A DNA stretch of 64,000 nucleotides. Origin: Pachysolen tannophilus NRRL Y-2460. Its lineage: Eukaryota. Shown piece by piece: positions 5,102 to 60,968 of this stretch. Each line of letters starts with the position of its first letter. The first letter of the stretch is position 1. Under the pieces are notes generated by a model. It worked only from the letters and a program-made list of their open reading frames with translations. It made no database searches and was not told the origin of the DNA. The stretch is from assembly GCA_001661245.1 (NCBI GenBank), contig KV454018.1:867996-931995 (forward strand), read 5' to 3'. A program made the translations under genes and the position numbers.

Positions 5102-5275
5102 TATAACGCTAAACTTGATTAATTCTATATACAAATTAAAAAAAAAAAAANAAAAANNNNNNNNNNNNNNNNNNNNNNNNNNNNNNNNNNNNNNNNNNNN
5201 NNNNNNNNNNNNNNNNNNNNNNNNNNNNNNNNNNNNNNNNNNNNNNNNNNNNNNNNNNNNNNNNNNNNNNNNNNN

Positions 5276-6974: not shown

Positions 6975-8918
6975 ATGTCAGCATCGTTATCTTCTAATAA
7001 GCTGAATGGAAATGAAATACCTATAGAGTTACCACTTTTTTCAAAAACACAATCTCCAAAGTCGTATTTATTCACTCAAATTGTACAATCTCATTTAGGT
7101 GAACAGGCATCTTTAATAATTAGTGTTTTAATAAGTTATGGAAGGTTAACAATTTTAAAAATACGTGAACATACTCATTTACCAATATTTAATATAAAAC
7201 AATCTTTAGTATCTCTTATACAGTTGAATTTGGTTGTTTTTTCTGTTGATGATAGGGATAGAGTTTTTTATACTTTTAATGGGAATGGAATATACAAGAT
7301 AATTTATAGTGGTGAAATTATTACTACAATTCATAATTTTTATAAAAATAAAAATGAAAAAGAATTTATTGATGAAATTAAAGTTAATATTTTCACTGAA
7401 ATTGTACAAAATGTATTAAGTAGTGGGTATTTAAGTATTGATGATTATTTAAATTCTTTAAGTGAACATGAACATAAAAATGAAGAACAAATTAAATTTT
7501 GTTTTAATCAATTGATTAATGATGGTTGGTTAAAACCAATTGATAAATTTCATTTTCAAAATAGATTTGATTTATATGAAAAATTGTATAAACAACAATT
7601 ATACAAATTTAATAAAGAAAATAAAATTGTTATGAGTGAATCTAAAAAGCAAATTGAAGTTAAAAAATTAACTGCTGAAAAATTTCAACAACTTTTCATA
7701 GATGAAAGTGATAAAAAGATAAATTCAAAAAATTCTTTAACTTTTAATTTGAATCGTTTTTTAAAAAGACAAAGATCACTACAATTATCATTATTATGCA
7801 AACATAAATTAGGTCCTTTATCACTGAAAATTTATTCTATTATTTTACAAAAATTTGAAAAAAATTCAACAGATATTATAAATGAAAAAATAGATATTTT
7901 AAAATATTCAAATGAAGTTAGTTCTTCATCAACAGGATTAGATCCAGAATCTTTAGAAAATGTTATTCATAAATTAAAACTAAAAGATTTAGAAATTTTA
8001 AAATTTAATGTAAATGAAATTTTACGAGAAATTCAAAAAAATAATGAAAAAAATAAAATTAAATTAACTAAAAGTATTATTAATCCTAATAAGAAAAGAA
8101 AAAATGGAATTAATAATCAAGAAAATAATATTCCAAGGAAAAAAATAAAACTTGAAACTTTAGATTCTTTGGATGAACTTGTAAATCAACAAGAACAGAA
8201 AAAAGTTGAAAATTCTATGGATGTTGATTTTGAAATGGATGGCTATAATGGCAACCAAAATGAAAATGAAAATGAAAATGAAAATGAGTTGGCAATTTTG
8301 AATACTCATTTGAAAATATTATCATCGAATAAAGATTATAAATTTTTAATTGAAAATTCACCAGGATCATTTTCTATTCCATTCATTGATCTTGCAACCC
8401 CACTTTCTCAAAATATTTATAACCAATTAATAAAATTAATCTTTGGACAAGATTCTTTAAGATTATTAAATTGTGTCAATGAATCAAAATTAATTGATGA
8501 AAAACTTTTAGGAAATTTGATCTTGATGAAAGATTTGAAAATAAGATCAATATTAAATAGGTTAATCCAATTTCAAATTTTGGAAATTCAAGAAATTCCA
8601 AAAACACAGGACAGATCAGCAATAAGAACAGTTTTCACTTTCAAACATAATTTTACATTATCTAAAAACATTTTGAAGAATTGTCTCAACTATAACATGG
8701 CACATATTTTACATCTAATCACAGATAAAAAATCAGAAAATAAAATCTTAATAGATAAATCTTTAAGAGATGACGTTAAAGGTAGAGAAGAAGAAATGTT
8801 AATCGAATCTGAATTGGTAAAATTGAACGAATTATACAATTTTGAAATTTCAAACTTGGTCAAGTTCAATAGGCTAAGAAGCTTAGTAGACGTTTTTGAA
8901 TACTTACAAACCCCTTGA
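6975..8918 (+). CDS. RPC82: RNA polymerase III subunit C82
   Basis: IVQSHLGE..GRLT..IKQSLVSLIQL, EIQEIPKTQDRSAIR, LRDDVKGREEE; RRPE-like TGAAAAATTT upstream; divergent from QCR2 as in S. cerevisiae. Confidence 0.9.
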   Translation: MSASLSSNKLNGNEIPIELPLFSKTQSPKSYLFTQIVQSHLGEQASLIISVLISYGRLTILKIREHTHLPIFNIKQSLVSLIQLNLVVFSVDDRDRVFYTFNGNGIYKIIYSGEIITTIHNFYKNKNEKEFIDEIKVNIFTEIVQNVLSSGYLSIDDYLNSLSEHEHKNEEQIKFCFNQLINDGWLKPIDKFHFQNRFDLYEKLYKQQLYKFNKENKIVMSESKKQIEVKKLTAEKFQQLFIDESDKKINSKNSLTFNLNRFLKRQRSLQLSLLCKHKLGPLSLKIYSIILQKFEKNSTDIINEKIDILKYSNEVSSSSTGLDPESLENVIHKLKLKDLEILKFNVNEILREIQKNNEKNKIKLTKSIINPNKKRKNGINNQENNIPRKKIKLETLDSLDELVNQQEQKKVENSMDVDFEMDGYNGNQNENENENENELAILNTHLKILSSNKDYKFLIENSPGSFSIPFIDLATPLSQNIYNQLIKLIFGQDSLRLLNCVNESKLIDEKLLGNLILMKDLKIRSILNRLIQFQILEIQEIPKTQDRSAIRTVFTFKHNFTLSKNILKNCLNYNMAHILHLITDKKSENKILIDKSLRDDVKGREEEMLIESELVKLNELYNFEISNLVKFNRLRSLVDVFEYLQTP

Positions 8919-9548
8919 ATTCATATAAACCCTTTCAACATCATCATAATCGTTATCATTGTTATTATTATTGCATTGTAGTTTCCCGATGCCATTGGTT
9001 GGTTTTCCACCAATGACCGTCCGTGTCGCCTTTTCTTTCTTACTTCTAACCTTTTATCGCCAGTGTCACCCCTGTTATCTGGGTCACATGACACCCTGCA
9101 CATTAGATGACCTTATCGTAAAGAAAAAAAAAAATAAAAAAGTGTTTTAAAAACAATCACTTAAATTGATTTAGTTTAAATGTAAATATCTATATAATAA
9201 TATTAAATAAGGAAAGGATTGTATATGTCTATTATAAGGATAGATTATTTATATTTGAGTTATTTATTGTGATCTGAGTCTCTAATATCAAGTGATTAAA
9301 TTTATTGTGGTTGGGGAAAGAGATTACACAGATAGCAAAATAGATTCTAGTTAAATATATATAAAAAAAAATAAGAGTTATTGTGTACTACTAAAGTAGT
9401 AATTGGTAGTATTACATTGATTTATTGCTGGACAAGGATATTTAAATTGTTGCTTGTTAAATTTATTATATTTAACATTATAAATCATCAAATTGTATTG
9501 AATTAATAGTTTGTATATATTGGGAGGCAATTTTTGTTTAAAGAGGTT

Positions 9549-10167
9549 ATGAGTTACTTTAATAATAGTAGCGATAATAATAATTTATCAAAACAAAAAA
9601 TTAAATCATCGCATAGTAATAGAAATATTGATAAATCGACTCAGGTTATACAAGTAAGTATTTTTTATGTTTTTTTTTTATTTTATCTTTTTTGATGATG
9701 ATAACAGTGAATTACTAACAAAAATTTGTGTTTGTTTTTGATTTTTTGCTTATTTATAAAAGAATTTTTTCTTAAAAGCTTCTCATATAATAGCACAGGC
9801 AAGATCTCCTCCGCCATCTCCGGTTAAACTGCATCATGTTGAAACAAAAGGTTCTCAAGTTAAATTGAATAAATGGTTTAACTTGGAGTTGGACGAATAT
9901 GATGCGCCTCCAAGGGAAGATTTGAAATTATGGAGAATCTTATCGTCTTCTTCTTCGAGCGATTTATCATCATCTATTTTAAATTTACCTCCCTTGGTAA
10001 TCGAAACATATTTGGATCTTCGTGATTTGAATAATAATCAAACTTTAATATTGCTCGATAAGGGTAATCTTATAAGTGTTACCAGAGGTACAAAGAAAAC
10101 TGAAGTGGTGTTGGAAAGATGGTTGGTGGAGTTTGATTTAACCACTATTTTGAAGATTGATAATCAA

Positions 10168-10205
<38 letters not shown>

Positions 10206-12926
10206 TAATATTAATATTAATATTAATAATAGGGATCAGCATTTACCTAGTATTTATAAAAAAATAATAGTCTTATTCAGAATATTATACACTTATTTAA
10301 GGTTATTACCAGCTTCCATATTAAGATCAGATTTAATGAAAAACCATGTAAACCAATTAAAGATTAATTACAGAATATTGGATGGAAATAATCCGATATC
10401 ATCTAAAGGCAGAATTGGTTTATCAAAAGATTTGAAATCAAAAAAAAAAATAAAACTACTGGTGATAGCAGTAACGAATTGCCTAAACATTTGAAACAGA
10501 AAAAATTTGAACCAATAATAACACCTATAGGCAGTATGAGACTAAGCGTCTCTTATAGAGAAAACTGTGATTTCAAATTGAACGATAACGAAGAACTATT
10601 AAGTTCACATTTTTTAAGCATAGACAACAACAACAATAATAACAACAATAATAATAATAATATTGTGCAACATAGTGATATTGACAAAGCTGCAACTGTT
10701 GAGAAAAAACTTTCACCAGATTCAAGTAATGATCTGGTGTTACAAGAGGAAGAGGAAAAGATAACCGAGATAAGTTCACATAGTAAGGAGGGAAGCGAAA
10801 AATCAACTCCTGAGCCTGTGGCTTTAATGGCAAATACTTCTTCAAAGCAAATCAATCAGTTGAAGAGACTATCTTTACTGTCTACCAACTCTTTATCTCC
10901 AGGATCACCTTTTTTAAAAGAGTTTTCGCCTTCGTTCAGTAAATTGAGAAGATCGTCTTCATCAGCTTCTAGGAGTTTCCAACCTTTCAAAGTTGGGTCA
11001 ATTTCTAGTTTACAAAATGCTAACAGCGCAGGTACTCCTCCTTCATCATCGTCATTAGAGCAACAGCAACAGCATCAATTTACTGTTCAAAGTAATTCTT
11101 CAACTACTTCATTGGCCGCTATGTTAAGACAACAAAGAACAAGCTTTAGCAATAACAACCAACCAAGTGGTGCTGTATTGATTCCTACAAAAGGAAATGC
11201 TATTAACAATTCGAATCAATTATATATTGGAAGTATTGATTCTTCACTTTCATCGACTACTAATATGCAAGTACCACAGCGTGTTTCAACTAGCGTTGAA
11301 AGTCGTATACAACAACAACAACCACAACAACCACAACAGCTGTTATCAACATCTTCAAACACTCCTAAATTTTCTTCATCTTTTGGTTCTAAATATAGGA
11401 AAAGCAGTACAAATACTAATACTTCAAGGCAAAATAGTTTAGAAAATCAGCATCATTTTCAAAATCAAAGAATTAAATCTTCTACATCATTAGTTGGTGA
11501 CGAAGTGGATCTACAGCAACCTAACGATGATAATGATTTGGATAGCTTTATTAAGTTATTGGATGCCAAACCTGATTTAAGGTTTAGTTCTGTATCATCA
11601 ACATCGATCTTAAATAAGTCTCGTAACAATGATCTTAATAATGATTCTTTAGAAAAATTTCAAATGATGAGAAGTAATCACAACGTTTTAAGTGATAGTT
11701 TAACTGCTAGTTTGATGGGGTTTAACCAACAACTTCAACACCCACAACAACAACCACCACATTCTTCAAGTTATGGTCAATCCCCTCCTCCCCTAGTTAT
11801 AAGACAACAGAGAGTATCATTTTCCAATAGTTCTCCTAATAGATATACTCCTTTAATTTCTTCAAAATTGAGTGGAGAAAGCATAACGTCAACTTCTTTG
11901 GGGAATAGGCAGCATAGTCAAGAACATCATGATCATGATAATATCAGTGATTATTTATATCCGAACAATAATAGTAATAATAGCAACAATAGCAACAATA
12001 GCATCAGAGAGCATAATATTGGATCTGCGCCGGTATTTCCTTCTTATCTACCGAAATCATCATCTCCGCAAGCAGTGCAATTACCATCTGCACCATCTCA
12101 TCCTAATTCCAAGAGAAATAGTTTTTCATCAAATTCACTCAATTATAATTACTCTAAGATTTTAAGTCCATCACAGGCTACTATTAGTGCTTCAAATGCC
12201 CACGCAAAGATGTTTAAAGATACTAAAAACAATCTTTTGACAAATAGAAAATTGTCAAGTTCCAATGAGTACAATAGCAATAACAAAAGCAGCGACTCGT
12301 TATCAAGGGTTAAGAATACGATACATAATGCCAATGACCCTACAACAAATAGGAGTCCGACATTATCTACAACAGTGACTACTAACAGGTCAAGATCAGA
12401 TTCTCAGGATTCTTCAGATTCTTTGACCAATACTTCATTCTTAAGATTACATCAAAATAGAAGTTATAACTCTAATTCTCCATCTTTAAACCATCATCAA
12501 GCAAATTCTAATTTGAAAAAGGCTGTATCTGCCGCATACAATCACGAGTCAGCTATTGTAGATGATGATGATGATGATGACAATGAAGAAGCGACGAAAG
12601 AAGGCTTGGAAAATAAAGACAGAAGAAATAAGCAAAATGAAGATGTCAATAATGAAAAGGATAAGAAAGATAAAAATAATAAAAATAAAGATAGCCAGGA
12701 TGATGACGAATTTGATTTGGACAACATGACTAGTGACAGGCTAAGATTATTAAGAGGTTATACTGATTCCAATAATCAAAAATCAAATAGGATTACTAGT
12801 GGTGGAACCAATAAAAAATCAGATCATTATTCTCATTCGCACGAAGAAAACAATGACGAAGATGATGATGAAGAAGATGATGATTTATTGTTTGCTATGA
12901 GTGATATGAACTTAGCAAGAGGTTAA
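9549..12926 (+). CDS. ATG13: Autophagy protein Atg13 (exon 1 9549-9653, intron 9654-9762, apparent frameshift in the A-run 10440-10450)
   Basis: GTAAGT / TACTAAC (9713) / AAG intron joins ..TQVIQ|NFFLKASHIIAQAR. HORMA motifs NKWFNLELD, VLERWLVEFD, YKKIIVLFR..Y..LRLLPA, then TPIGSMRLSVSYR in the next frame; C-terminal DDLLFAMSDM. Confidence 0.88.
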
Positions 12927-27431: not shown

Positions 27432-27683
27432 TATGCATACTTGTGAATATTTTTCTGTTGTGTTGGAAATACGCATTTGGGTAAAAAATGGTTAATTGAT
27501 GTTTTTTGTCTTTTATTTTTTTTTTTTTTTTTTTCTAATGACCTTATAGCTTTATTCTTATTTATTAAGTTTTATGAATCATGAGTTCAAATCAATGAAA
27601 TGCATTACATTATATTATATTTATTTTTTTATTTTATTTTTTATTATTATGGCAATTAGGAAAAAATGATGTAAATTGTTTAT

Positions 27684-28964
27684 TTACCTACCTTCTTCAA
27701 CTTCTTCTACATCTCTATCTGTGATGCTCCCCATTTCTATATCATTTACTGAACTAGTTACAAAGATGTTTCTATTTTTTGTTGACCCTGAACGATTTGA
27801 ACTGGTTTCCTCATTGATATTGAATTCTTTAGAAGAAGTATCATTATCAGTTAATGTTGAAACATCAATGATATCAAAATTCCTTGCTGCTTGTCTAGTT
27901 GATTGACCACCTTTATTGTAAAAATCAAAAAAATCATATAATAATATGGATGGAAGGAAAAAAGAAACAAATAAACAAGCCAAATAAAATGAAAAAAAAT
28001 AAATTACTATTTTTGAAGCTGTTAATTTACCTTCAATGTTTATTTCAAAAATTTCATATTTTAAAATCTCAAGTATATCAAATAATGATAATTCTGGAAA
28101 TTCGGATTTTAATCCAAACTTCACTGATAATGGTACATTATGTATCAAAACTGTAAGTGACACAATAATTGCTGTTGTGAAAAAAAAATACAATATAATT
28201 TTTTGTAATTTAAATCTATTTAAACATACCAATGTTGTTAATGGTTGGAAAAATAAGATTGCACAAACTGCAGCGGATAAATAAAAAAAATAATTATTTA
28301 CTGTTAGACTTAATATTAAATCTATTCTTCTTCTATGAATAACATTTTGTAAAAAATCTTGAAATTTTTTCCCCATTTGTTTTCTTAAATTTATTAAAGC
28401 ATCATTATTTTTATTATAATGCATTCCTGTATGATGATCTAATTTAGAATTAAAATCACTATTAAAATTGATGAAAATCTTTTCAAGTTTTGTAATTTCA
28501 ATTTGATTTTGAGTTTTATTATTTAAATTAAAATCTTGAATTTTTTCAAGATAAATCGAATGTATTGGTTTAATTTTATTATATTCCTTCAGTGTTTGTA
28601 AAAATGGTGTTTCCTTAGAATAACAATGATAACTTATAATCATCTTAAAATAATCAATATATAAAGTTTTCCTGAATTTAGGACAAGAATTTCTTGTTGT
28701 TGCATTCCTAACAAATCTTTCATCAACTTTTATTTTCTTATTCCATAAAAATTTGTTTTCATCAATTATATAAGTTTTTTCGAAATTTTCTAATGGATAC
28801 TTATTCAAATCTAAAATCTTATATTCCTTCACATCTTTAGCTGTACTTAATGGATAAGAAAACTCAAACCCACATAAACTTATTTTGAAAATGTTGTAAA
28901 TACAAGCATTCATTAAAAACCAAATTGGTAAAGTATAACTAAAAATGAATGCAGTCACTTTCAT
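27684..28964 (-). CDS. Uncharacterised multi-pass membrane protein (1+3 TM layout, possibly Sur7/PalI-like)
   Basis: 426-aa ORF; N-terminal hydrophobic segment, large loop containing Cys, three C-terminal hydrophobic segments and an acidic tail; family not recognised. Confidence 0.6.
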   Translation of the reverse strand: MKVTAFIFSYTLPIWFLMNACIYNIFKISLCGFEFSYPLSTAKDVKEYKILDLNKYPLENFEKTYIIDENKFLWNKKIKVDERFVRNATTRNSCPKFRKTLYIDYFKMIISYHCYSKETPFLQTLKEYNKIKPIHSIYLEKIQDFNLNNKTQNQIEITKLEKIFINFNSDFNSKLDHHTGMHYNKNNDALINLRKQMGKKFQDFLQNVIHRRRIDLILSLTVNNYFFYLSAAVCAILFFQPLTTLVCLNRFKLQKIILYFFFTTAIIVSLTVLIHNVPLSVKFGLKSEFPELSLFDILEILKYEIFEINIEGKLTASKIVIYFFSFYLACLFVSFFLPSILLYDFFDFYNKGGQSTRQAARNFDIIDVSTLTDNDTSSKEFNINEETSSNRSGSTKNRNIFVTSSVNDIEMGSITDRDVEEVEEGR

Positions 28965-29443
28965 TGCTTGAAAAAAATAATATAAACCATGAATTATAAA
29001 AAAAATACCATGAGACTAAAAACCAGCAAACAACCAGAAAACAAAAGTAAAAAAAAAAAAAAAAAAATACTAAAGGAATACCTTGCTTTTACCATTCATT
29101 ATTCACTATTCACCAATTACCAATTACCAAAATACCATAGTTCTATCGAGATTAAACTCATATCTATTCTTTGATCCCACTTTAGATTCCTTTTACAGAC
29201 TTTGTATTGTCCTTTATGTACACAAAAACGCATGTTTCTGCAATGAAGAGACAAAAAAACAGAAAAAAACAGAAAAAAAAGAAGATGCATAATACAGAAG
29301 CCGCACATATGCGGAGAAAAAACAAAACTTTTAAAAAACACCTTCTCCATTACGGAGAACAAAAAATCTTAATTTTTTCCTCCATTTATCTTCTCCGACT
29401 TTTGAATTGAAAAATTTTTAGATGAACAAACTTAACTTGAATT

Positions 29444-30231
29444 CGAACTCTTAATAATCCAGATCTTGGAGAAATTTCATTTCTAAAAGATTTCCCAATA
29501 GAAGCAGAAGCAAATGGCATTTTTTCATTATTAAAATCCAATAATTTATTAAAATTTAAAAATTGACCTTGCGCTGTTTCTGGTCTTAAATAACCTTTTA
29601 AAGCTCCTGAAGGACCGATTGCTGTTTCAAACATTAAATTGAACTCCTTTGGTTGTTCTAATAAACCACCAGTAGCTGGATTAGTAATGTTATACTTTGT
29701 AATGATCTCTCCCAATTGAGCACCAGAAAATCCATCAATCTTTGCCAAGATAATTTCATATTCTTCAACAATATGATCTTCAAGTTTAATCGCTTTGATT
29801 TCCTTAACTTTCTTCTTTCTCTTTTTCTTATCTTCATCTTGTTCAACATGGTTAGAAGCAATTCCCCTTGCTTCTTTGTCACCTTTTAATCTTGCTTCCA
29901 AGACTTCTTCAACTAAATGATCTGCTCTAAAAATCTCTCCAGTCCTTGGATCTTTACACATCCAATCTGAAAATTTATCAACATGACCAGATGTCTTCAA
30001 TACTTCGTAAGGAGTTAACATCGTACAGTCAACTTCTAACATATCTTCTTCCAAGATAAAATGTTTTCTCCAATAATCAACAATGTTTGCTTGTAATGCA
30101 CAACCAGGTGGACCATAATCGTATAAACCAGAAATACCTCCATATATTTCAAAAGCTGGTGCAAAGAAAAATCTTCTTTTAAGAACACCTTCTAATGCCT
30201 CTCTTGAAAAACCAGATGCTTCTTTCGACAT
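29444..30231 (-). CDS. GRS1: Glycyl-tRNA synthetase, N-terminal half (inverted relative to the C-terminal half)
   Basis: [46 protein letters not shown]; homology ends at 29444. ATG at 30231; possible TTG start at 30357. Confidence 0.93.
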
Positions 30232-30494
30232 TTTCAAATTCAACTTCGAATTCTTCCTATTTACTTTTCGTATATTAGTTTTTTGAAATAAATTAAAACT
30301 TGATGAAAATTGGCGTCTAAAAGATGCTGAAGATGCAGCAAATTTAAAGCAATTCAATTTGGAAAAAAACAATTTCACAAGAGAAAAAAAAAAAAATAAA
30401 AGTTGAAAAAAAAGGATTAATTCATAAAACTTTACTTGGATCAAGAAAGCAATGATATATTATGATATCAACTTATTTCAAAAATATTATTATG

Positions 30495-31689
30495 TGAATT
30501 TTTGATGGCTGAAATTGAACATTATGTTGATCCTGAAGATAAATCCCATGCAAAATTCAAACAAGTTGAAAATATCGAATTAAATTTCCTTCCAAGAGCT
30601 GTTCAGGAATCAGGTAAGACCGATTGTATCAAGGAAACTATTGGTAATGCTGTCAAGACTGGTATGGTTGATAATGAAACTTTAGGTTATTTTATTGCAA
30701 GAATTTTCTTATTTTTAACTAAGATTGGTGTTGATTCAAAAAGATTAAGATTCCGTCAACATATGGGAAATGAAATGGCTCATTATGCTCAAGATTGTTG
30801 GGATGCAGAATTAGAATCTTCTTATGGTTGGATTGAATGTGTTGGATGTGCTGATAGATCTGCATATGATTTATCAGTTCATTCTGCAAGAACAAAGGAA
30901 AAATTATGTGTAAGACAAGCATTACCAGAACCTAAAATTGTGGAACGTTTAGAGATTGATTTAGAAAAGAAAAAATTTGGTCCAAAATTTAGGAAAAATG
31001 CTTCATTAGTTGAATCTTGGTTAGTTAGTAGAACTGAATGTGAATTAGAAAATTTACAAAAACAATTGAATGAAACAGGTAAACTGGCTTTTAAAGTAGA
31101 AGGTATAGATGAAGAGATAGAAATTGATACAAGCCTTGTTAAAATTGAAAGAAGAACAAGAACAGAACATATTAGGGAATATATACCAAACGTCATAGAA
31201 CCATCTTTTGGTATTGGACGTGTAATTTATTCCATCTTTGAACATTCATTTTGGACAAGACCTGAAGATTCTTCAAGAGTTGTCTTATCATTACCACCGC
31301 TTGTTGCTCCAACAAAAGTTTTACTTGTACCATTATCAAATAATGAAGTTTTAAAACCAATTTTGGAAAAAGTTTCACAAGCTTTAAGACAACAAAAAAT
31401 TCCATTCAAAGTTGATGATTCCTCTGCTTCTATAGGTAAACGTTACGCTAGAAATGATGAATTAGGTACTCCCTTTGGTATCACAATTGATTTTGAAAGT
31501 ACAGACGATGATTCAGTCACTTTAAGAGAAAGAGATTCTACAAAACAAGTTAGAGGTAGTTTCCAAGAAATTATCGAAGCAATTAAAAAAATTACATACG
31601 ATGATTTATCATGGGAAAAAGCTACAACAAATTTAAAACCATTTGAAACAAAAGTCGAAGACGAACTCTCAGAATTATCAGTCAACTGA
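30495..31689 (+). CDS. GRS1: Glycyl-tRNA synthetase, C-terminal half
   Basis: Begins exactly at (CG)T GAA TTT TTG ATG GCT = EFLMAEIEH; EMAHYAQDCWDAE, VIEPSFGIGR, IGKRYARNDELG. Confidence 0.93.
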
Positions 31690-31922
31690 TCCTGATATCA
31701 TATTTAATCTACTTCTACTTTATCTAATCTTTTATAACCTTTTTTTTTGTATTTTGTTCATTTCAACCTTGTCCTGATTATGTAAGTTGAAAAATTTTTT
31801 AAAATTTTTTTTTTTCTTTTTCTTTTTACGTTATAATTATCAAATACAAGCGCAAATATTTAATACTAGTAAAATATATATATAGAGAAAGATATATATA
31901 TATCATTAGTAAGATTGATAAA

Positions 31923-32577
31923 ATGGCCAAGAGTAGTATGTATATATAGATTTATCTTGAAGCTTTGGAAAAGCAAAGCAAAGAAAAGAAAGGGAAGAAA
32001 GATTTAATTGAATGAAGGGATACTAACTTTTTTTTTTTAATTAGTTTCGAAACATTCTAGAGCAGCCAGAAGAGGTGAGATTAAAGATGCAGCAGAAGCT
32101 AAATCTTTATCCAAGATACCTAGAGCTGAAAATACGAATATAGCGAGCTCTATAATAAGATTAGCAGCAAAGAATGAAGGGTTGCTACAGAAGAAAATGG
32201 GTAAAAATAAAACCCGAGGTCAACCAACTAGAATAGTTAAAGAAAGAAAGCAAAAAGCATTAAAGATGGATGGAAAATTAACATTTAAAATTGAGCAAAG
32301 CCTTGAAAGAGCTAAAAATGTACAATTCTCTAGAAAATCAGGTTGGGATAGTATTAATAAAAATATTAGAGAAGAGCTAAGTAAAGGAGATGCGGATGCT
32401 GTATTGAAAAATCATAAAGAAAAAGCTAAAACAAACGAAGAAATGGAGATAGAAGGAAATATAGAAGATGAAGAGGATGAAGATGAAAATGAAAAAGATT
32501 CTCATGATCACCATAAAGAATCAGCTCATAATCAGAAAAATCTTTTTGCGTTGCTAGGAGATGAAGTTGAAACTTGA
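31923..32577 (+). CDS. ECM1: Pre-60S factor Ecm1 (exon 1 31923-31935, intron 31936-32044)
   Basis: GTATGT / TACTAAC / TAG intron gives MAKSISKHSRAARR..IPRAE..AAKNEGLL; RKSGWDSIN; RRPE motif upstream. Confidence 0.85.
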
Positions 32578-35549: not shown

Positions 35550-37250
35550 CTATAAGAACTCATCCCAAAACTTGATTTCTAGTTCGGTAACATCTTTGAA
35601 AATTTTAATTAATTTCTCTAATTTCTTCAAAGAGATGTATCCGTCTTGGTTAAAGCAGTGATCATTGATTATCTTATCACCCCTTGTACAAGCTTGAAGA
35701 TATTCTTCAGAAGTATATTCTTGTAACCAAAAGTTGAATAGTTGAGATTTATCATCGTTTTCAATAATACCTTTGAAGATACTTTGTCCAAAAATTGAGG
35801 CATACTTATACCCATGCAAACAAGGTGCTAGAGCAATATTTATCTCCAACCAATCTCCCTCATTCTTACCTATGTTCATCAAATAATTGTTATAATTCTG
35901 ACACAGTTGATTCATCTTTGTTAAGCTGAGTTCTTCTGCTGATATACCTAATTTTGCCAACTTCAGAGTGTGTTTATCAACTTCTGTAGTACATTCAAGC
36001 AATATTTGTGCTTCCATTTCAATTGAAGAAATATCAGGAGCAATTGAAGACGCTAAAGAATGAACTCTTGCATAGTTAAGTAAATAGCAGCTGTCCTGTT
36101 TTAAAAAATTTAAAAAATGGGATTTTGGTAGCGATAAATCTGCAACTTTATGAATAAACTTATGATGTATGTAATCGTTCCAAACATCTTTGATTGAAGG
36201 ATGATTGATCAAATACTGCAAAAATTCACCTTTTTCAAAAGGAATCTTAATAAAACTTTCATCAAAATCAAACTCCAAATCTTTTCTGGATATGGCGTAA
36301 CAGTGATTCAACGGGCCATGTCCATGGCCTATATTTCCTGAATGGGTGATACCATTTTGGACGTAATTAATAGCATTACCAATTGCATCGACCAAAGACA
36401 ATTTTTTTGCTAAATTTGAAGCAATTGAAGAAGCTAAAGTACATCCAGTTCCATGTGTGTTTTGAGAATTACTAAAATTGGATTTAAATAATGAAAATTT
36501 ACCAGAGTCAGATTGATATAAGACATCAGTAATATAGCTATCATTATTATTTTCATCTTTCCAAGGGATATGCCCACCTTTTAATAATACATTTTTAACT
36601 TTGGTGAACTTTGAAAGTTTAAAACACATTCCAAAAATATCATCAACAGTATTTGCCTTAAAATTCTTGTAGTAATTTGCCTTATTTTCTTCGGATTCAA
36701 AATCTGTATCAACTATAGAAAGGATAGTAGTTGCTTCAATAAAATTTGGAGTTATTAAAGTAACATAGGGGAAAAGCTCTTCTATCAATAATTTGATATT
36801 TTTCTGTGCAGTTAACTCATATCCTGAAGTACTCACCATAACTGGATCGATGACTAATGGGTTTGAATAACCATATTTCAAAATGGTCTCTTTTAAAGCT
36901 AAAATACAATCCACAGTTAACATACCAGTTTTGATAACATCAATATCAATATCCTTGAAGTTTGCATCAAGAATCTTGATCAAAAATTCAAAAGGAATTT
37001 GGAATGAATCATTCACACCAATTGTATTTTGAGCAGTCAATGAATTGATACAAGTTAACCCATAACACTTGTGTGAAGTAATTGTCTTCAAATCAGCCTC
37101 TATACCAGCACCACCAGATGAATCTGACCCAGCAACAGTTAAAACTGTAGGCAATCTATCCGATACAGCTTGATTATGAATAAATGGAGCTTTCGGTACA
37201 TTCGTCAAATCAATGGTTTTTAGATCTGTACTTGCAGCTGTTAACATCAT
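35550..37250 (-). CDS. THI20: HMP/HMP-P kinase fused to a TenA domain (Thi20/21 family)
   Basis: VLTVAGSDSSGGAGIEADLKT, DPVMVSTSG, LLKGGH, THGTGCTLASSIA; TenA-like tail ELEIKFWD. Confidence 0.92.
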   Translation of the reverse strand: MMLTAASTDLKTIDLTNVPKAPFIHNQAVSDRLPTVLTVAGSDSSGGAGIEADLKTITSHKCYGLTCINSLTAQNTIGVNDSFQIPFEFLIKILDANFKDIDIDVIKTGMLTVDCILALKETILKYGYSNPLVIDPVMVSTSGYELTAQKNIKLLIEELFPYVTLITPNFIEATTILSIVDTDFESEENKANYYKNFKANTVDDIFGMCFKLSKFTKVKNVLLKGGHIPWKDENNNDSYITDVLYQSDSGKFSLFKSNFSNSQNTHGTGCTLASSIASNLAKKLSLVDAIGNAINYVQNGITHSGNIGHGHGPLNHCYAISRKDLEFDFDESFIKIPFEKGEFLQYLINHPSIKDVWNDYIHHKFIHKVADLSLPKSHFLNFLKQDSCYLLNYARVHSLASSIAPDISSIEMEAQILLECTTEVDKHTLKLAKLGISAEELSLTKMNQLCQNYNNYLMNIGKNEGDWLEINIALAPCLHGYKYASIFGQSIFKGIIENDDKSQLFNFWLQEYTSEEYLQACTRGDKIINDHCFNQDGYISLKKLEKLIKIFKDVTELEIKFWDEFL

Positions 37251-37596
37251 CTCTGGAAACACTTTTATTTACAAGTTACCAACGCTTTTCTGAAAAATCG
37301 GATCCAGCCAAATGATTCCAAGTCAACAGAGATATTCAATTGACCATAAACAATTTCAAGTTCGAAGTTTAGAAGAATCTTCTCAAAATAACGTATTTAT
37401 GGGCCAAAATTGCATCGTCTGATGGCTATCGCGGGAAACTTTTCAAATCAAAAATGCAAAATACTTTACAATTTTTATATCAATTTTTCAAAAATTGAAA
37501 TATTCAAATAGCAAATACAAGACAAAAAAAAAGGTTGACATTATTTCTGTTTGTATTAGGGAAGGGTTTGTAATAAGTAGTTTGGTTAATTTAAGA

Positions 37597-39246
37597 ATGA
37601 GTCAGTTTGATAAGGCTAAGGTTGATTATTCACTTTATTTGGTCACTAATCGTGAAATGATTCCAGATGGAATCACTATTTTTGAACAAGTTGAAAGAGC
37701 TATTATGAATGGAGTCACAATAGTTCAATTAAGAGAGAAAGAAGCTGAGACTAAAGAGTTTGTTGAAATTGCCAAGAAAATCCATCAATTGACTATGAAA
37801 TATAATATTCCTTTAATTATCAATGATAGAGTTGATGTTGCCCTAGCGGTGGATGCAGAAGGTGTTCATATTGGTCAAGATGATATGGATGCAGAAACGG
37901 TAAGGAAATTGATCGGAGATAATAAGATACTTGGTGTTAGTTGTGGGTATGTCGAGGATGTTCAAAATGTTATTAAATCCGAGGCCAAGATTGATTATAT
38001 TGGTATTGGTGCTGTTTTTCCAACAAATACCAAGAAATTGAAAAAGGTTCCATTTGGTACAGATGGAATCAAGAAATTGTTGACTGTGTTAAGAGATAAT
38101 GGTGGCCAGCATATTAAATCTGTCATTATTGGTGGATTGAACAAGTCAAATATTCTGCAGGTTTTATATACAAGTTCGATTCCAGGTAAGGCAACTGATG
38201 GAGTTGCCGTAGTATCATGTATAATGGCTCAAGAAGATGCTTTAAAAGAAACAAAAGCAACTCTTGCTTGTATCAAAGAAGTTGGTCCTTGGGTCAAAAA
38301 AGATCAAATTCTAACTGATTTGCAATTATCAAGAGATTATTTTACTTCTTCAAAATTCAAAGATATTATTTATACTTTGAAAAATATAAAACCAATGGTT
38401 CATCATATTACAAACAATGTTGTTAAAAATTTTTCAGCAAATGTTACAATTTCTATTGGAGGCTCACCAATAATGTCTGAATTAGTACAGGAATTTGAAG
38501 ATTTTGCCCAATTTCCAAACACTGGGTTATTATTAAATACTGGTACTCCAACGGAAGAAACATTACCCGTATTTTTGGAAGCAGTTAAACTGTATAATTT
38601 GAACGGAAGCCCAGTGGTATATGACCCTGTAGGATGCGGTGCTTCAGGTGCAAGGAAGAGATATATGAGTGAAATCTTGAATCATGGATATTTCACTGTT
38701 ATTAAGGGAAATACAGGAGAAATTCTAACTGCTGCTGGTTTTGACTCAAGGATGAAAGGTGTTGATGTGATGGATTCTTCGCAAAGTCATCAGTACTTGA
38801 TCGACGCTGCTAAAAAATTAGCCGTTTCTCAAAGGTGCGTTGTGGTATTGACTGGTGAGTTAGATATTATCGTTGATGGAATTGTAGACCCAACAATCAT
38901 AAAAATTCCACGAAATTTTGAACCAGTTGTAGCAGTAATTAAAGGTGGTCATGAGCTTATGGGAAATATTACAGGATCTGGATGTGCTCTAGGAAGCGTT
39001 ATTACAGCTTTTGTGGCATCAAACTCCACCAAGAATGTCTTTTTCAGTACCATTTCTGCTGTCATGTTATTCAAAGAAGCAGGGTATTTGGCTGGAAAAA
39101 TCAGTGATGGTCCAGGATCGTTCATGCTTAACTTCTTAGATCAACTATACAAAATTTCCCACTTGGAATCTTTCAAAGATGGAAACTGGAATACTAGTGT
39201 CAGCTTTCCGTACTCGTCTTCTTCCTCTATACTCTTAAGTCTTTGA
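37597..39246 (+). CDS. THI6: Thiamine-phosphate synthase / hydroxyethylthiazole kinase
   Basis: VDYSLYLVT, VQLREK, LIINDRVDVA, GVHIGQDD, HHITNNVVKNFSAN, ITGSGCALG. Confidence 0.95.
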   Translation: MSQFDKAKVDYSLYLVTNREMIPDGITIFEQVERAIMNGVTIVQLREKEAETKEFVEIAKKIHQLTMKYNIPLIINDRVDVALAVDAEGVHIGQDDMDAETVRKLIGDNKILGVSCGYVEDVQNVIKSEAKIDYIGIGAVFPTNTKKLKKVPFGTDGIKKLLTVLRDNGGQHIKSVIIGGLNKSNILQVLYTSSIPGKATDGVAVVSCIMAQEDALKETKATLACIKEVGPWVKKDQILTDLQLSRDYFTSSKFKDIIYTLKNIKPMVHHITNNVVKNFSANVTISIGGSPIMSELVQEFEDFAQFPNTGLLLNTGTPTEETLPVFLEAVKLYNLNGSPVVYDPVGCGASGARKRYMSEILNHGYFTVIKGNTGEILTAAGFDSRMKGVDVMDSSQSHQYLIDAAKKLAVSQRCVVVLTGELDIIVDGIVDPTIIKIPRNFEPVVAVIKGGHELMGNITGSGCALGSVITAFVASNSTKNVFFSTISAVMLFKEAGYLAGKISDGPGSFMLNFLDQLYKISHLESFKDGNWNTSVSFPYSSSSSILLSL

Positions 39247-49730: not shown

Positions 49731-49972
49731 NNNNNNNNNNNNNNNNNNNNNNNNNNNNNNNNNNNNNNNNNNNNNNNNNNNNNNNNNNNNNNNNNNNNNN
49801 NNNNNNNNNNNNNNNNTTCTTTTTTTTTTTTTCACTTTTTCATTATTATTTTATAATTAGCAAATAGAGCTATTTACAAATGGTGTCTATATAGTGTTCC
49901 GGTATTAAAAGTGAAAAAGAAAAATAGTTAGAAATAAATGTATAAAATATATTTAGTATTTTCATTGTAAAA

Positions 49973-58488: not shown

Positions 58489-58526
58489 CAAAATTCTTGA
58501 TTTTATTCATTGTATGATAAAATTTA

Positions 58527-58988
58527 TTTTTCATAACTAATATCTCCAATGCTATAACTTCCATACCTTCTGCCATAATTGCTAAAAGAATTGGGCCTGT
58601 TAAGGGAACATTGTTTACTCAATTACCTTCAGCGGTATTCTTTATGCTCATCCCATTGTTGAATTTCAGTTTTGTAGCTTCAGCAATATCATTGATATTA
58701 TACTCTTCTATGATGGCAATGGATGTTGTTCCAAGACAAATTTTACTTACTACTTTAATAAATCATCATGAACTAACTAAAGTTTTAGGTATTGTGAATA
58801 TAGGGAAAACCGCAGCAAGATGTTGTGGGCCAGTTTTCACAGGGAAATTAGCTAGTATGGGGAAACTATGGGTTTGTTATATAATCTCCGGTTTAAGTGT
58901 TTTATTAAGCGGAAGCATTTTAGCCATTAATTTCAGAGGTATAGATAAAGTTGTACTTCAACAAAATCGTGTTAGAAGGAGAGTTTGA
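58527..58988 (+). CDS. YJR124C-like MFS transporter, C-terminal part (inverted)
   Basis: FFITNISNAITSIPSAIIAKRIGPVK..MDVVPRQILL..VNIGKTAARCCGPVFTG; has no start of its own, with an in-frame TAA at 58518. Confidence 0.85.
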   Translation, partial: FFITNISNAITSIPSAIIAKRIGPVKGTLFTQLPSAVFFMLIPLLNFSFVASAISLILYSSMMAMDVVPRQILLTTLINHHELTKVLGIVNIGKTAARCCGPVFTGKLASMGKLWVCYIISGLSVLLSGSILAINFRGIDKVVLQQNRVRRRV

Positions 58989-59150
58989 TAATTAAAGCTT
59001 TTCAATTAATACCCGCATTTTTTCTTTTTTTTTTTTTTTTTTCTTTTTCTTTCTTTCTTTCTTTTCTTTTGCTTTATCGTTATCTTTTTTCTGGCTCTCT
59101 ATATTGCTAGCTTGTTTATATATATCATTAAAATATAAGTATATACTGTA

Positions 59151-60095
59151 TAAAATACCTAATACAAAAGCTGTGACACCAAAGGAAACTTTGAAATAAT
59201 AAACTACCCATGCTGAAGTCATAAATCCATATCCAAATGAATCTATCATAAATATAACTAACAACTTAGATAAAATATTTTGAGTTTGATGAGATAACCC
59301 AGTCCACGTACTTGTATTTAATATATCTTGCCTCATTTCATCATCTTCTTCTTCGTAGTCATATTCACGTACTGAACCATGTAATCCTTCCAATAATGGA
59401 TCACTATCACTACTAGAGGTATTTCTTTCTTGTATATCTTGTTCCAAACAATGAGTTGAACGATATGTAACTTCACAATTTTCTGATAAATATAGCATCA
59501 AAATAAATTTTGTGAAAGCGAGTAGAGTATAACCTACAAATACAGATTTATAACAAGTCAATAATTGCCAACCTTGCTTTCTGTTCAAATAATCAATCAT
59601 AAAACCTGTAACTATTGAGCCAAATGCTGAACCCATTGTTGAAAGTAAACCATGAATAGCGTAAACTTCAGGCCTAAGATCCAAAGGTGCTAATTGTGCT
59701 ATTGAAGCTTCTTCAACTGATTTAAAAGGACCAGTTTCGTCTCCAGAAGGTGAAATGACACCCACAATTGCAGCAAATAACAAAATTATGAAATTATCGA
59801 TTGGTGAGGCAAATATTATACCACTTATCATCATCAACAATGTTCCTATGATCATAACATTTTTCCTTCCTATCTTATCACCATACCAAGTGAGATTATA
59901 CGAAATTGCCGAATCTCCAAGTAAACTCAACGTCATAAATAGTCCAATATTGGATTCAGATATGTTCAAACTTTTCAAATATAATGTCAATATTTGGTTT
60001 GTCAGACCATAAGAAGTCAACCTGATAAACACAGAAGCCCATAGTATGCGTATATCACTGGATGAGCTTTGAAGTGTCTCCACAATATGAACCAT
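59151..60095 (-). CDS. YJR124C-like MFS transporter, N-terminal part
   Basis: DIRILWASVFIRLTSYGLTNQ, VISPSGDETGPFKSVEEA, KLLVIFMIDSFG; homology ends at VLGIL. Confidence 0.85.
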
Positions 60096-60968
60096 TACAG
60101 AAGCATCTATATTCCCAAATATTCACTTTATTTTCTATTTCTTACTTTAAAAATATCAACTACAATCCATCAGAGGAATTATCTCTTTACCTTCATCCAG
60201 AGTTAGCAGTTAAAGCCGTCTTATTAAAGTCGCTTTTTTTCACAAAAGATTTCTCGCTTAATTTTTTTTTTTTTTCTTTTTTTTCACAAAAAGCGTAAAC
60301 CCCGAAAATGAAAACGGCTGCGACCCCACTTGATGATGGAAAAGATGAAATACAACGACAATACGATGATGAGTATTTAATATCATAGAAGATTACGTTA
60401 TTTTATCTTTGGACAGAACATTGTCGTCAGATTAAGCATTACCCAAGAGATTCTATTTATGACTAATCGTTACAAATTTTCAAAATAAATTGAAAAGTAA
60501 AGTAAAGTAAAGTAAAGTAAAAAAAAAAAAAAAAAGAAAAAAANNNNNNNNNNNNNNNNNNNNNNNNNNNNNNNNNNNNNNNNNNNNNNNNNNNNNNNNN
60601 NNNNNNNNNNNNNNNNNNNNNNNNNNNNNNNNNNNNNNNNNNNNNNNNNNNNNNNNNNNNNNNNNNNNNNNNNNNNNNNNNNNNNNNNNNNNNNNNNNNN
60701 NNNNNNNNNNNNNNNNNNNNNNNNNNNNNNNNNNNNNNNNNNNNNNNNNNNNNNNNNNNNNNNNNNNNNNNNNNNNNNNNNNNNNNNNNNNNNNNNNNNN
60801 NNNNNNNNNNNNNNNNNNNNNNNNNNNNNNNNNNNNNNNNNNNNNATTAAGCATTACCCAAGAGATTCTATTTATGACTAATCGTTACAAATTTTACAAA
60901 ATAAATTAGAAAAGTAAAGTAAAGTAAAGTAAAAGTAAAAAANAAAAAAAAGAAAAAAAGAAAGAAGT

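What the first reader, a model, noticed from the sequence alone, without database searches (positions are those of the whole stretch)
29444..30494. Essential GRS1 gene split by a clean 1.05-kb inversion that restores a perfect ORF when flipped
Seen: the minus-strand half ends ..AGA GTT CG at 29444 and the plus-strand half starts T GAA TTT TTG ATG at 30495. Reverse-complementing 29444-30494 gives GTT CGT GAA TTT TTG ATG, the conserved GLLRVREFLMAEIEH of motif 2, with no base gained or lost. It also places an RRPE-like TGAAAAATTTT (29408) upstream of the gene. Neither half shows decay and no N-gap is nearby. The segment is bounded outside by a TGAATT direct repeat (29438-29443 and 30495-30500), with only 1 bp of inverted homology. 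Established: GlyRS is essential. Inference: the most likely cause is a misassembly. Alternatives are a heterozygous or subclonal inversion, a broken copy backed up by a paralog, or an intragenic invertible switch, which I do not know of in yeasts.
Basis: partly seen in the sequence, partly recalled or inferred. Interest (0 to 1): 0.8.

Follow-up and report, generated by a model that had tools for sequence, protein, structure and literature searches.

The report
Misassembled inversion splitting yeast GlyRS gene
The glycyl-tRNA synthetase gene looks cut in two by a 1-kb flipped segment, but independent sequencing data carry the segment the other way round with the gene whole, so the break is an error of this draft assembly, not biology.

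Summary
In the window, codons 1-262 of a eukaryotic GlyRS (GRS1) lie on the minus strand (30231->29444). The rest, 397 codons plus stop, lies on the plus strand (30495->31689). Flipping 29444-30494 gives one 660-codon ORF with no base gained or lost. Exactly one residue, the split Arg codon, is missing between the halves when they are aligned to solved GlyRS and to 5 of 5 yeast homologues.

The break is not biological. Contigs from 4 of 4 public runs laid on the region (2 samples, 2 studies) join both junctions in the flipped, intact orientation. No listed contig bridges a junction the window's way. No inverted repeats flank the segment.

The window is a gapped draft. Three homopolymers differ from all four runs. 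ATG13 has a frameshift at an A11 run. A second gene, an MFS transporter, is split by another exact inversion of about 0.63 kb at 58.5-59.15 kb. That second inversion rests on homology only.

The truncated products are in public protein collections. The organism is Pachysolen tannophilus or a near-identical strain.

Low interest, except as a warning about this assembly.

The parts
29444..30494 (.). The 1,051-nt segment that is inverted in the window relative to the sequencing data. The breakpoints are ambiguous by 1 nt.
   Evidence: table 5 lists 'opposite strands' joints 29443|30494, 29444|30493, 29444|30495 and 29445|30494 in X1, X2, X4 and X5. Table 8 shows X1 record 1 and X4 record 14 running through both junctions. 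One search shows the flip restores a 660-codon ORF.
29444..30231 (-). GlyRS (GRS1) N-terminal half: codons 1-262 plus the first two bases (CG) of codon 263.
   Evidence: Translation. PDB match to human GlyRS, E 1.9e-80, ending at 4kr2_A residue 233. Alignment A1.
30232..30459 (-). 5' leader of the gene inside the inverted segment. The frame stays open for 76 codons upstream of the ATG with no in-frame ATG. The last 41 codons have 10 K+R, 0 D+E and 8 S+T, and candidate non-AUG starts are TTG at -42 (30355-30357), TTG at -47 and GTG at -49. This is a possible mitochondrial presequence (inference).
   Evidence: The comparison with the UUG-initiated mitochondrial form of S. cerevisiae GRS1 is recalled, not tested.
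30495..31689 (+). GlyRS C-terminal half: the last base (T) of codon 263, then 397 codons and the stop. It contains the rest of motif 2 and the anticodon-binding domain.
   Evidence: Translation. PDB match, E 1.1e-109, starting at 4kr2_A residue 235. Pfam HGTP_anticodon, E 5.7e-23.
29386..29443 (-). Artefactual read-through tail (19 codons plus stop) that the truncated N-half acquires in the window's orientation.
   Evidence: Protein P0243 (281 aa = 262 + 19) in the protein collection.
29408..29418 (+). TGAAAAATTTT, the RRPE-like word. It would lie about 290 nt upstream of the ATG once the segment is flipped. It is at chance frequency in this AT-rich window.
   Evidence: 3 matches against 2.01 expected, and 34 of 100 shuffles reach at least 3. 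The name and consensus of the motif are recalled.
58523..59154 (.). Second exact small inversion (622-632 nt; 5-nt inverted microhomology TTTAT/ATAAA makes six equivalent breakpoint pairs). It splits an MFS transporter gene. It was not read-tested.
   Evidence: Pfam MFS_1 on both strands. Sequence and ORFs. The minus part aligns to homologue P0124 up to about residue 289. The plus part aligns to P0124 residues 288-439 at 71% identity. The flip gives a 468-aa ORF.
59150..60095 (-). MFS transporter N-terminal part (to ...VLGIL), followed in the window by non-homologous read-through.
58524..58988 (+). MFS transporter C-terminal part (from about FFITNIS to the stop), on the wrong strand.
10440..10450 (+). 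A11 run inside the overlap of the two ATG13 reading frames (9760-10494 and 10407-12926). It is a probable homopolymer-length error that causes a frameshift.
   Evidence: (ATG13 profile 2-196 in one ORF, 198-233 in the other).

Best explanation
The 1,051-nt segment 29444-30494 was placed in the wrong orientation when this draft scaffold was built. In the organism (Pachysolen tannophilus or a near-identical strain) the segment lies the other way round, and GRS1 is one uninterrupted plus-strand gene of 660 codons encoding an ordinary eukaryotic class II glycyl-tRNA synthetase.

Shown: the two halves abut to the base; read-derived contigs of four runs carry the intact orientation; and the same scaffold has other errors. 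These are homopolymer lengths, a frameshift at an A-run, and a second exact small inversion in an MFS gene, the last supported by homology only.

Inferred: the error arose in assembly or finishing rather than in the cells. The step of the pipeline that produced it is not known.
For: (1) One search covers 4 of 4 runs laid (X1, X2, X4 from sample S1 of study P1; X5 from sample S2 of study P2). Contigs join 28000-29444 to the far end of the segment on the opposite strand, and join the near end of the segment to 30494-31785. X1 record 1 (12,057 nt) and X4 record 14 (10,517 nt) run through both junctions. In X2 (records 8, 12) and X5 (records 20, 22) each junction is bridged with at least 111 letters on the shorter side.

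(2) table 3 lists no other-letter differences over 4 kb, so the runs are the same strain or nearly so. Bin depth at the junctions equals the depth of the single bridging contig in X1 (29.6).

(3) Flipping gives a 660-codon ORF. Exactly one residue is missing between the halves, both against 4kr2_A (residues 233 and 235) and against 5 of 5 yeast GlyRS. All 120 listed relatives of the C-half but a few fragments are single chains of about 650-660 aa.

(4) Nothing suggests a biological inversion mechanism. There are no flanking inverted repeats, and no recombinase family was reported among the 28 large ORFs (E cutoff 1e-5) or the 99 small ORFs (E cutoff 0.01) scanned.

(5) The assembly is demonstrably imperfect nearby. 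It has three N gaps. Three homopolymers (at 29272, 30383, 31739) are shorter than in all 4 runs (table 4). ATG13 is frameshifted at an A11 run. A second exact inversion of about 0.63 kb lies in an MFS gene.
Against: The runs are held as contigs, not raw reads, and contigs drop rare variants. A minority of cells with the window's orientation therefore cannot be excluded.

The best holders may be the very sample the window was assembled from, so X1-X4 are not independent of it. Only X5 is a second study.

Table 8 was cut (74 rows not shown) and 35 loose ends were not shown. I rely on depth and on the joints table for 'no colinear contig'.

I cannot name an assembler step that makes base-exact inversions without Ns.

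Both inversions have a short direct repeat near both breakpoints, of 6 and 7 nt. Under a loose criterion chosen after the fact, such repeats occur in 7.4% and 2.3% of random pairs. Both also carry a long homopolymer about 100 nt inside one end. This could be the signature of a process I do not understand.
Confidence: 0.93

Rival explanations
1. This is a real inversion present in a minority of cells, or in the particular clone or DNA preparation used for the assembly. It entered the consensus by chance, while the bulk population keeps GRS1 intact.
For: Contigs show presence, not absence (caveat stated). The breakpoints are base-exact. Both small inversions have short direct repeats near both ends, which might mark a template-switch event.
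Against: Four of 4 runs give only the intact form, with long contigs unbroken through both junctions. A cell with only the broken form would lack GlyRS (essentiality is established knowledge; a paralogue could not be searched because no genome is held). A second such inversion 29 kb away, plus homopolymer errors, fits a faulty assembly better than two rare cellular events captured together.
Confidence: 0.04
2. This is a fixed strain-specific inversion. The assembled strain truly carries a broken GRS1 and lives on a second GlyRS gene, and the public runs come from other isolates.
For: S. cerevisiae has a second GlyRS gene, GRS2 (recalled). The whole genome could not be searched here.
Against: The runs differ from the window by no listed base substitution over 4 kb (table 3), so they are the same strain or nearly so. 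Neither half shows any decay: there are no stops or frameshifts in 660 codons. The 100%-identical truncated product sits on a contig of the same length (947,628 nt) as a deposited protein of P. tannophilus NRRL Y-2460.
Confidence: 0.02
3. This is a programmed intragenic invertible switch that turns GlyRS on and off.
For: P. tannophilus does have one programmed inversion, the 8-kb MAT region (passages of PMC6692504).
Against: That system uses 2-kb inverted repeats, whereas here the inverted homology is 1 nt. Only one orientation is seen in 4 runs. No recombinase family was reported in the window. Switching off an essential enzyme has no evident use.
Confidence: 0.005

Closest known systems
Eukaryotic class II glycyl-tRNA synthetase (S. 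cerevisiae GRS1; human GlyRS structures 4kr2, 2pme)
   Same: Once flipped, the gene is colinear with human GlyRS from residue 10 to 617 of 4kr2_A. It is 70-81% identical to yeast GlyRS proteins in alignment A1, and 65-75% identical to most listed relatives of the C-half. It has the HGTP anticodon-binding domain. It also has an open, basic, acid-free frame upstream of the ATG, as expected for a dual cytosolic/mitochondrial GRS1 (the S. cerevisiae precedent is recalled).
   Different: Nothing biological differs. Only the window's assembly splits it.
Flip/flop MAT inversion of Pachysolen tannophilus and other yeasts
   Same: It is a real, inducible DNA inversion in the same species (passages of PMC6692504).
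   Different: The MAT region is 8 kb, flanked by 2-kb inverted repeats, and both orientations are found. The GRS1 segment is 1.05 kb, has 1 nt of inverted homology, and shows one orientation in all runs.
Assembler-made inverted structures in yeast draft genomes (for example the DISCOVAR artefact reported in PMC6692504)
   Same: Both are structural features involving inverted sequence that exist in the deposited assembly and not in the organism. One search shows passages stating that two assemblies carry artefactual inverted repeats longer than 100 kb.
   Different: Those are huge duplicated inverted repeats at contig ends. Here two sub-kb unique segments are flipped in place, base-exact, in the middle of a scaffold.

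Membership tests
Eukaryotic-type class II GlyRS (GRS1) | Catalytic core homologous to GlyRS along its whole length | tested here: met
   The N-half matches 4kr2_A residues 10-233 at E 1.9e-80. The C-half matches residues 235-617 at E 1.1e-109. Caveat: the N-half alone hit 0 Pfam families at E<=0.001.
Eukaryotic-type class II GlyRS (GRS1) | Motif 2 continuous across the join, with no residue gained or lost | tested here: met
   Exactly one column lies between the halves in A1, and it is R in 5 of 5 homologues. The split codon CG|T encodes Arg.
Eukaryotic-type class II GlyRS (GRS1) | C-terminal anticodon-binding domain | tested here: met
   PF03129 HGTP_anticodon, E 5.7e-23, residues 274-365 of the C-half.
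Assembly artefact (misoriented segment) | Independent sequence data contradict the assembly at both junctions and support the alternative | tested here: met
   In 4 of 4 runs from 2 studies, contigs bridge both junctions in the flipped form. These are contigs, not raw reads.
Assembly artefact (misoriented segment) | No data support the assembly's own junctions | tested here: inconclusive
   No listed contig bridges 29443|29444 or 30494|30495 colinearly, and bin depth in X1 equals the single flipped contig. However, 74 table rows and 35 loose ends were not shown, and contigs drop rare variants.
Assembly artefact (misoriented segment) | Other errors of the same assembly nearby | tested here: met
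   Three homopolymer differences against all 4 runs. N gaps. ATG13 frameshift at an A11 run. A second exact inversion in an MFS gene, supported by homology only.
Programmed invertible DNA switch (flip/flop, inverton) | Inverted repeats flanking the invertible segment | tested here: not met
   One search shows no inverted pair at the two breakpoints. The inverted homology is 1 nt.
Programmed invertible DNA switch (flip/flop, inverton) | Both orientations present in populations | tested here: not met
   Only the flipped form is seen in 4 of 4 runs. A rare minority form is not excluded by contigs.
Programmed invertible DNA switch (flip/flop, inverton) | Recombinase encoded nearby | tested here: not met
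   Pfam scans of 28 large ORFs (E cutoff 1e-5) and 99 small ORFs (E cutoff 0.01) reported no recombinase or integrase family. Yeast flip/flop systems need none, so this carries little weight.
Pseudogene backed up by a paralogue | Decay of the broken copy and presence of an intact second GlyRS | tested here: not met
   There is no stop or frameshift in 660 codons after flipping. The paralogue search was not possible because no genome is held.

The most novel reading that the evidence does not exclude
The two base-exact sub-kb inversions are not software errors. On this reading they are real DNA rearrangements that existed at appreciable frequency in the DNA preparation behind the assembly. Each has a short direct repeat near both breakpoints and a long homopolymer about 100 nt inside one end. 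That would point to a homopolymer-associated template-switch or fold-back process that makes small inversions in this very AT-rich yeast genome, or in its library preparation.
Probability: 0.04. Interest if true: 0.45.

Novelty: not a real feature. Interest (0 to 1): 0.08.

Why it matters
Biologically it does not matter: GRS1 is intact in the organism.

Practically, the error has propagated. The protein collection holds a 281-aa truncated GlyRS, made of 262 real residues and 19 read-through residues. No relative of the C-half above 75% identity was listed. A deposited 'partial' MFS protein of Pachysolen tannophilus NRRL Y-2460 runs through the second breakpoint into non-homologous sequence.

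Anyone scoring gene presence, completeness or essential-gene loss from this assembly would wrongly see GlyRS as broken. Two such inversions were detectable in the coding sequence of a single 64-kb window. More may therefore exist genome-wide, including in non-coding DNA where they cannot be seen by homology.

Tried and rejected
A whole-genome search for a second GlyRS was not possible, because no genome is held for this window.

No RNA holder was listed among the sequencing runs, so no transcript check of the junction was made.

The notes of earlier scans held nothing for this genome, nor for the words tried. One search was a word-count slip.

The RRPE-like motif was rejected as evidence because it is at chance frequency.

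A joint 'skips 645' (30403->31049), with only 21 letters on its shorter side, appears in 3 runs (table 5). I treat it as a low-complexity cross-match, as the tool's own note suggests.

The X5 loose end at 29429 does not continue as the window does, and it lies 15 nt from the breakpoint. I do not take it as support for the window's orientation.

I asked whether inverting between the AATT-containing words at the two flanks could yield the window's form. By hand, it cannot, because the product would differ by 2 nt at each junction.

A Pfam scan of 99 small intergenic ORFs for further gene fragments on the wrong strand found none. It found only one weak sub-threshold hit and a complete LSM gene.

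Literature: the search 'Pachysolen tannophilus' plus 'genome assembly' gave 31 papers, of which 15 were listed. I saw only the listing, and read passages of PMC6692504. The search 'pachysolen' plus 'grs1' gave 0 papers. I found nothing in print about this inversion, and I did not read the genome papers themselves or any supplements.

Full report
**What is in the window.**
A stop-to-stop frame on the minus strand (29386-30459) contains an ATG at 30231. From there it reads 262 residues of a glycyl-tRNA synthetase, ending ...SPRSGLLRV, plus the two bases CG at 29445-29444. It then runs on into 19 unrelated residues and a stop. On the plus strand, T at 30495 is followed by 397 codons starting EFLMAEIEH and a stop at 31687-31689.

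A script that reverse-complemented 29444-30494 in place gave one 1983-nt frame of 660 codons plus stop, with its ATG at flipped position 29707. Breakpoints shifted by one base in opposite directions give the same product, so the ambiguity is 1 nt.

**Are the halves really one gene?**
Against solved structures, the N-half matches human GlyRS (4kr2_A) up to residue 233 (E 1.9e-80). The C-half matches from residue 235 on (E 1.1e-109). In an alignment with five yeast GlyRS proteins, the N-half ends one column before the C-half begins. That column is Arg in 5 of 5, and the split codon CG|T is Arg.

The C-half carries the HGTP anticodon-binding domain. The N-half alone hit no Pfam family at E<=0.001, so its identity rests on the PDB match and the alignment. 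Nearly all of the 120 listed relatives of the C-half are single chains of about 650-660 aa. The best is 75% identical.

**Is the break real?**
No genome is held for the window, so I used public runs. Five runs hold 95-96% of the sampled words of 27500-32500. X1-X4 are one sample of one study, and X5 is a second sample and study. I laid the contigs of X1, X2, X4 and X5 on 28000-32000.

In all four, the joints table lists 'opposite strands' joints at 29443/4/5 | 30493/4/5, with 1 letter of ambiguity. The piece table shows how:
- X1 record 1 (12,057 nt) covers 31785-30494 on one strand, then 29445-30493 on the other, then 29444-28000 on the first again, in contiguous record coordinates 7778-11567.
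- X4 record 14 (10,517 nt) does the same.
- In X2 (records 8 and 12) and X5 (records 20 and 22) each junction is bridged separately, with at least 111 letters on the shorter side.

This is exactly the flipped, gene-intact arrangement. No listed piece bridges either junction colinearly with the window. In X1 the depth in the junction bins equals the depth of the single flipped contig (29.6). No base substitutions are listed over the 4 kb, so the runs are the same strain or nearly so.

Caveats: these are contigs, which drop rare variants. The table was cut (74 rows and 35 loose ends not shown). X1-X4 may be the assembly's own data, so only two studies count as independent.

**Is there a biological inversion mechanism?**
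No inverted repeat sits at the breakpoints. No recombinase family was reported among the 28 large and 99 small ORFs scanned.

The species does have a programmed inversion, the 8-kb MAT region. But that region is flanked by 2-kb inverted repeats and is found in both orientations (passages of PMC6692504).

**The assembly is faulty elsewhere in the same window.**
- It has 509 N in gaps at 5157-5275, 49731-49816 and 60544-60845.
- In the 4 kb laid, three homopolymers are shorter in the window than in all four runs: +A at 29272, +AA at 30383, +T at 31739 (table 4).
- ATG13 is split into two overlapping plus-strand frames. Pfam profile positions 2-196 fall in 9760-10491 and positions 198-233 in 10407-12923. 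An A11 run at 10440-10450 lies in the overlap.
- Most telling, a second gene shows the same lesion, described next.

**The second inversion.**
An MFS transporter reads on the minus strand from 60095 to about 59150, ending ...VLGIL, and then runs into unrelated sequence. Its C-terminal 150-odd residues (about FFITNIS... to the stop) lie on the plus strand at 58524-58988.

Against a 442-aa homologue (P0124), the minus part aligns to about residue 289 (57% identity). The plus part aligns to residues 288-439 (71% identity). Flipping 58523-59154, or any of six equivalent pairs down to 58528-59149, gives a 468-aa frame that matches the homologue without a gap at the join. The six pairs arise from the 5-nt inverted microhomology TTTAT/ATAAA.

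**Organism and propagation of the error.**
A deposited protein named 'hypothetical protein PACTADRAFT_21501, partial [Pachysolen tannophilus NRRL Y-2460]' (P0123, 301 aa) matches the window's minus-strand MFS frame at 299 of its 301 residues, with a 23-residue gap. It ends in the same non-homologous read-through residues beyond the breakpoint.

One of the two mismatches is Leu in my translation against Ala in the deposit, at a CTG codon (60003-60005). That fits the CUG-Ala clade in which PMC6692504 lists this species.

The protein collection also holds a 281-aa protein (P0243) that is the truncated GlyRS N-half plus its 19 read-through residues. It was called on a contig of 947,628 nt, the same length as the contig of P0123. 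So the deposited assembly behind these models carries both inversions, and truncated products have entered protein collections.

The TGAATT direct repeat abutting both breakpoints is real. That exact configuration occurs in 0.09% of random position pairs.

The second inversion also has a 7-nt direct repeat, ATAAAAT, at 58517-58523 and 59150-59156. Under a loose criterion chosen after the fact, repeats of at least 6 and at least 7 nt near both breakpoints occur in 7.4% and 2.3% of random pairs.

Both inverted segments also contain a long homopolymer about 100-110 nt inside their right end: A13 at 30384-30396 and T18 at 59025-59042. I have no mechanism for either regularity. They may mark the faulty pipeline step.

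The RRPE-like word is at chance frequency.

**Side observation on the gene itself.**
Upstream of the ATG the frame is open for 76 codons without an ATG. The last 41 codons are basic and acid-free (10 K+R, 0 D+E), and they are preceded by TTG at -42 and -47 and GTG at -49. This looks like a non-AUG-initiated mitochondrial presequence, as I recall for S. cerevisiae GRS1. It was not tested.

**Verdict.**
The feature is not real biology. My confidence is 0.93. The remaining probability lies mostly with a rare or clone-specific real inversion that contigs cannot exclude.

Noticed in passing
window 58523-59154 (MFS gene 58524-60095): A second base-exact small inversion (622-632 nt, with 5-nt inverted microhomology) splits an MFS transporter gene. 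A deposited 'partial' protein of Pachysolen tannophilus NRRL Y-2460 runs through the breakpoint into read-through residues.
   Followed up: partly
window 9760-12926, A11 run at 10440-10450: ATG13 is split into two overlapping frames on the same strand, with a homopolymer in the overlap. This is probably a homopolymer-length error, like the three seen against the reads at 29272, 30383 and 31739.
   Followed up: partly
window 30232-30459 minus strand: The frame upstream of the GlyRS ATG is open for 76 codons with no ATG. The last 41 codons are basic and acid-free, and TTG/GTG candidates lie at codons -42, -47 and -49. This may be a non-AUG mitochondrial presequence.
   Followed up: partly
window 29438-29443 / 30495-30500 and 58517-58523 / 59150-59156; homopolymers 30384-30396 and 59025-59042: Both inversions have a short direct repeat (6 and 7 nt) near both breakpoints, and a long homopolymer about 100-110 nt inside the right end. 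This could be the signature of whatever process made them. It is unexplained.
   Followed up: partly
window 60003-60005 minus strand; GlyRS codon 460: A CTG codon is read as Ala in the deposited Pachysolen protein but as Leu by the standard code. GlyRS has a single CTG, at codon 460. Translations given here use the standard code, so they may differ at such codons.
   Followed up: partly
window 35550-39246: Two thiamine-biosynthesis genes sit head to head on opposite strands. One is a THI20-like HMP kinase fused to TENA (minus strand). The other is a THI6-like TMP synthase fused to hydroxyethylthiazole kinase (plus strand). Identification is by Pfam only.
   Followed up: no
window 31788-31798: A second copy of TGAAAAATTTT lies just downstream of GlyRS and about 250 nt upstream of an Alb1-family gene (32041-32577).
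   Followed up: no
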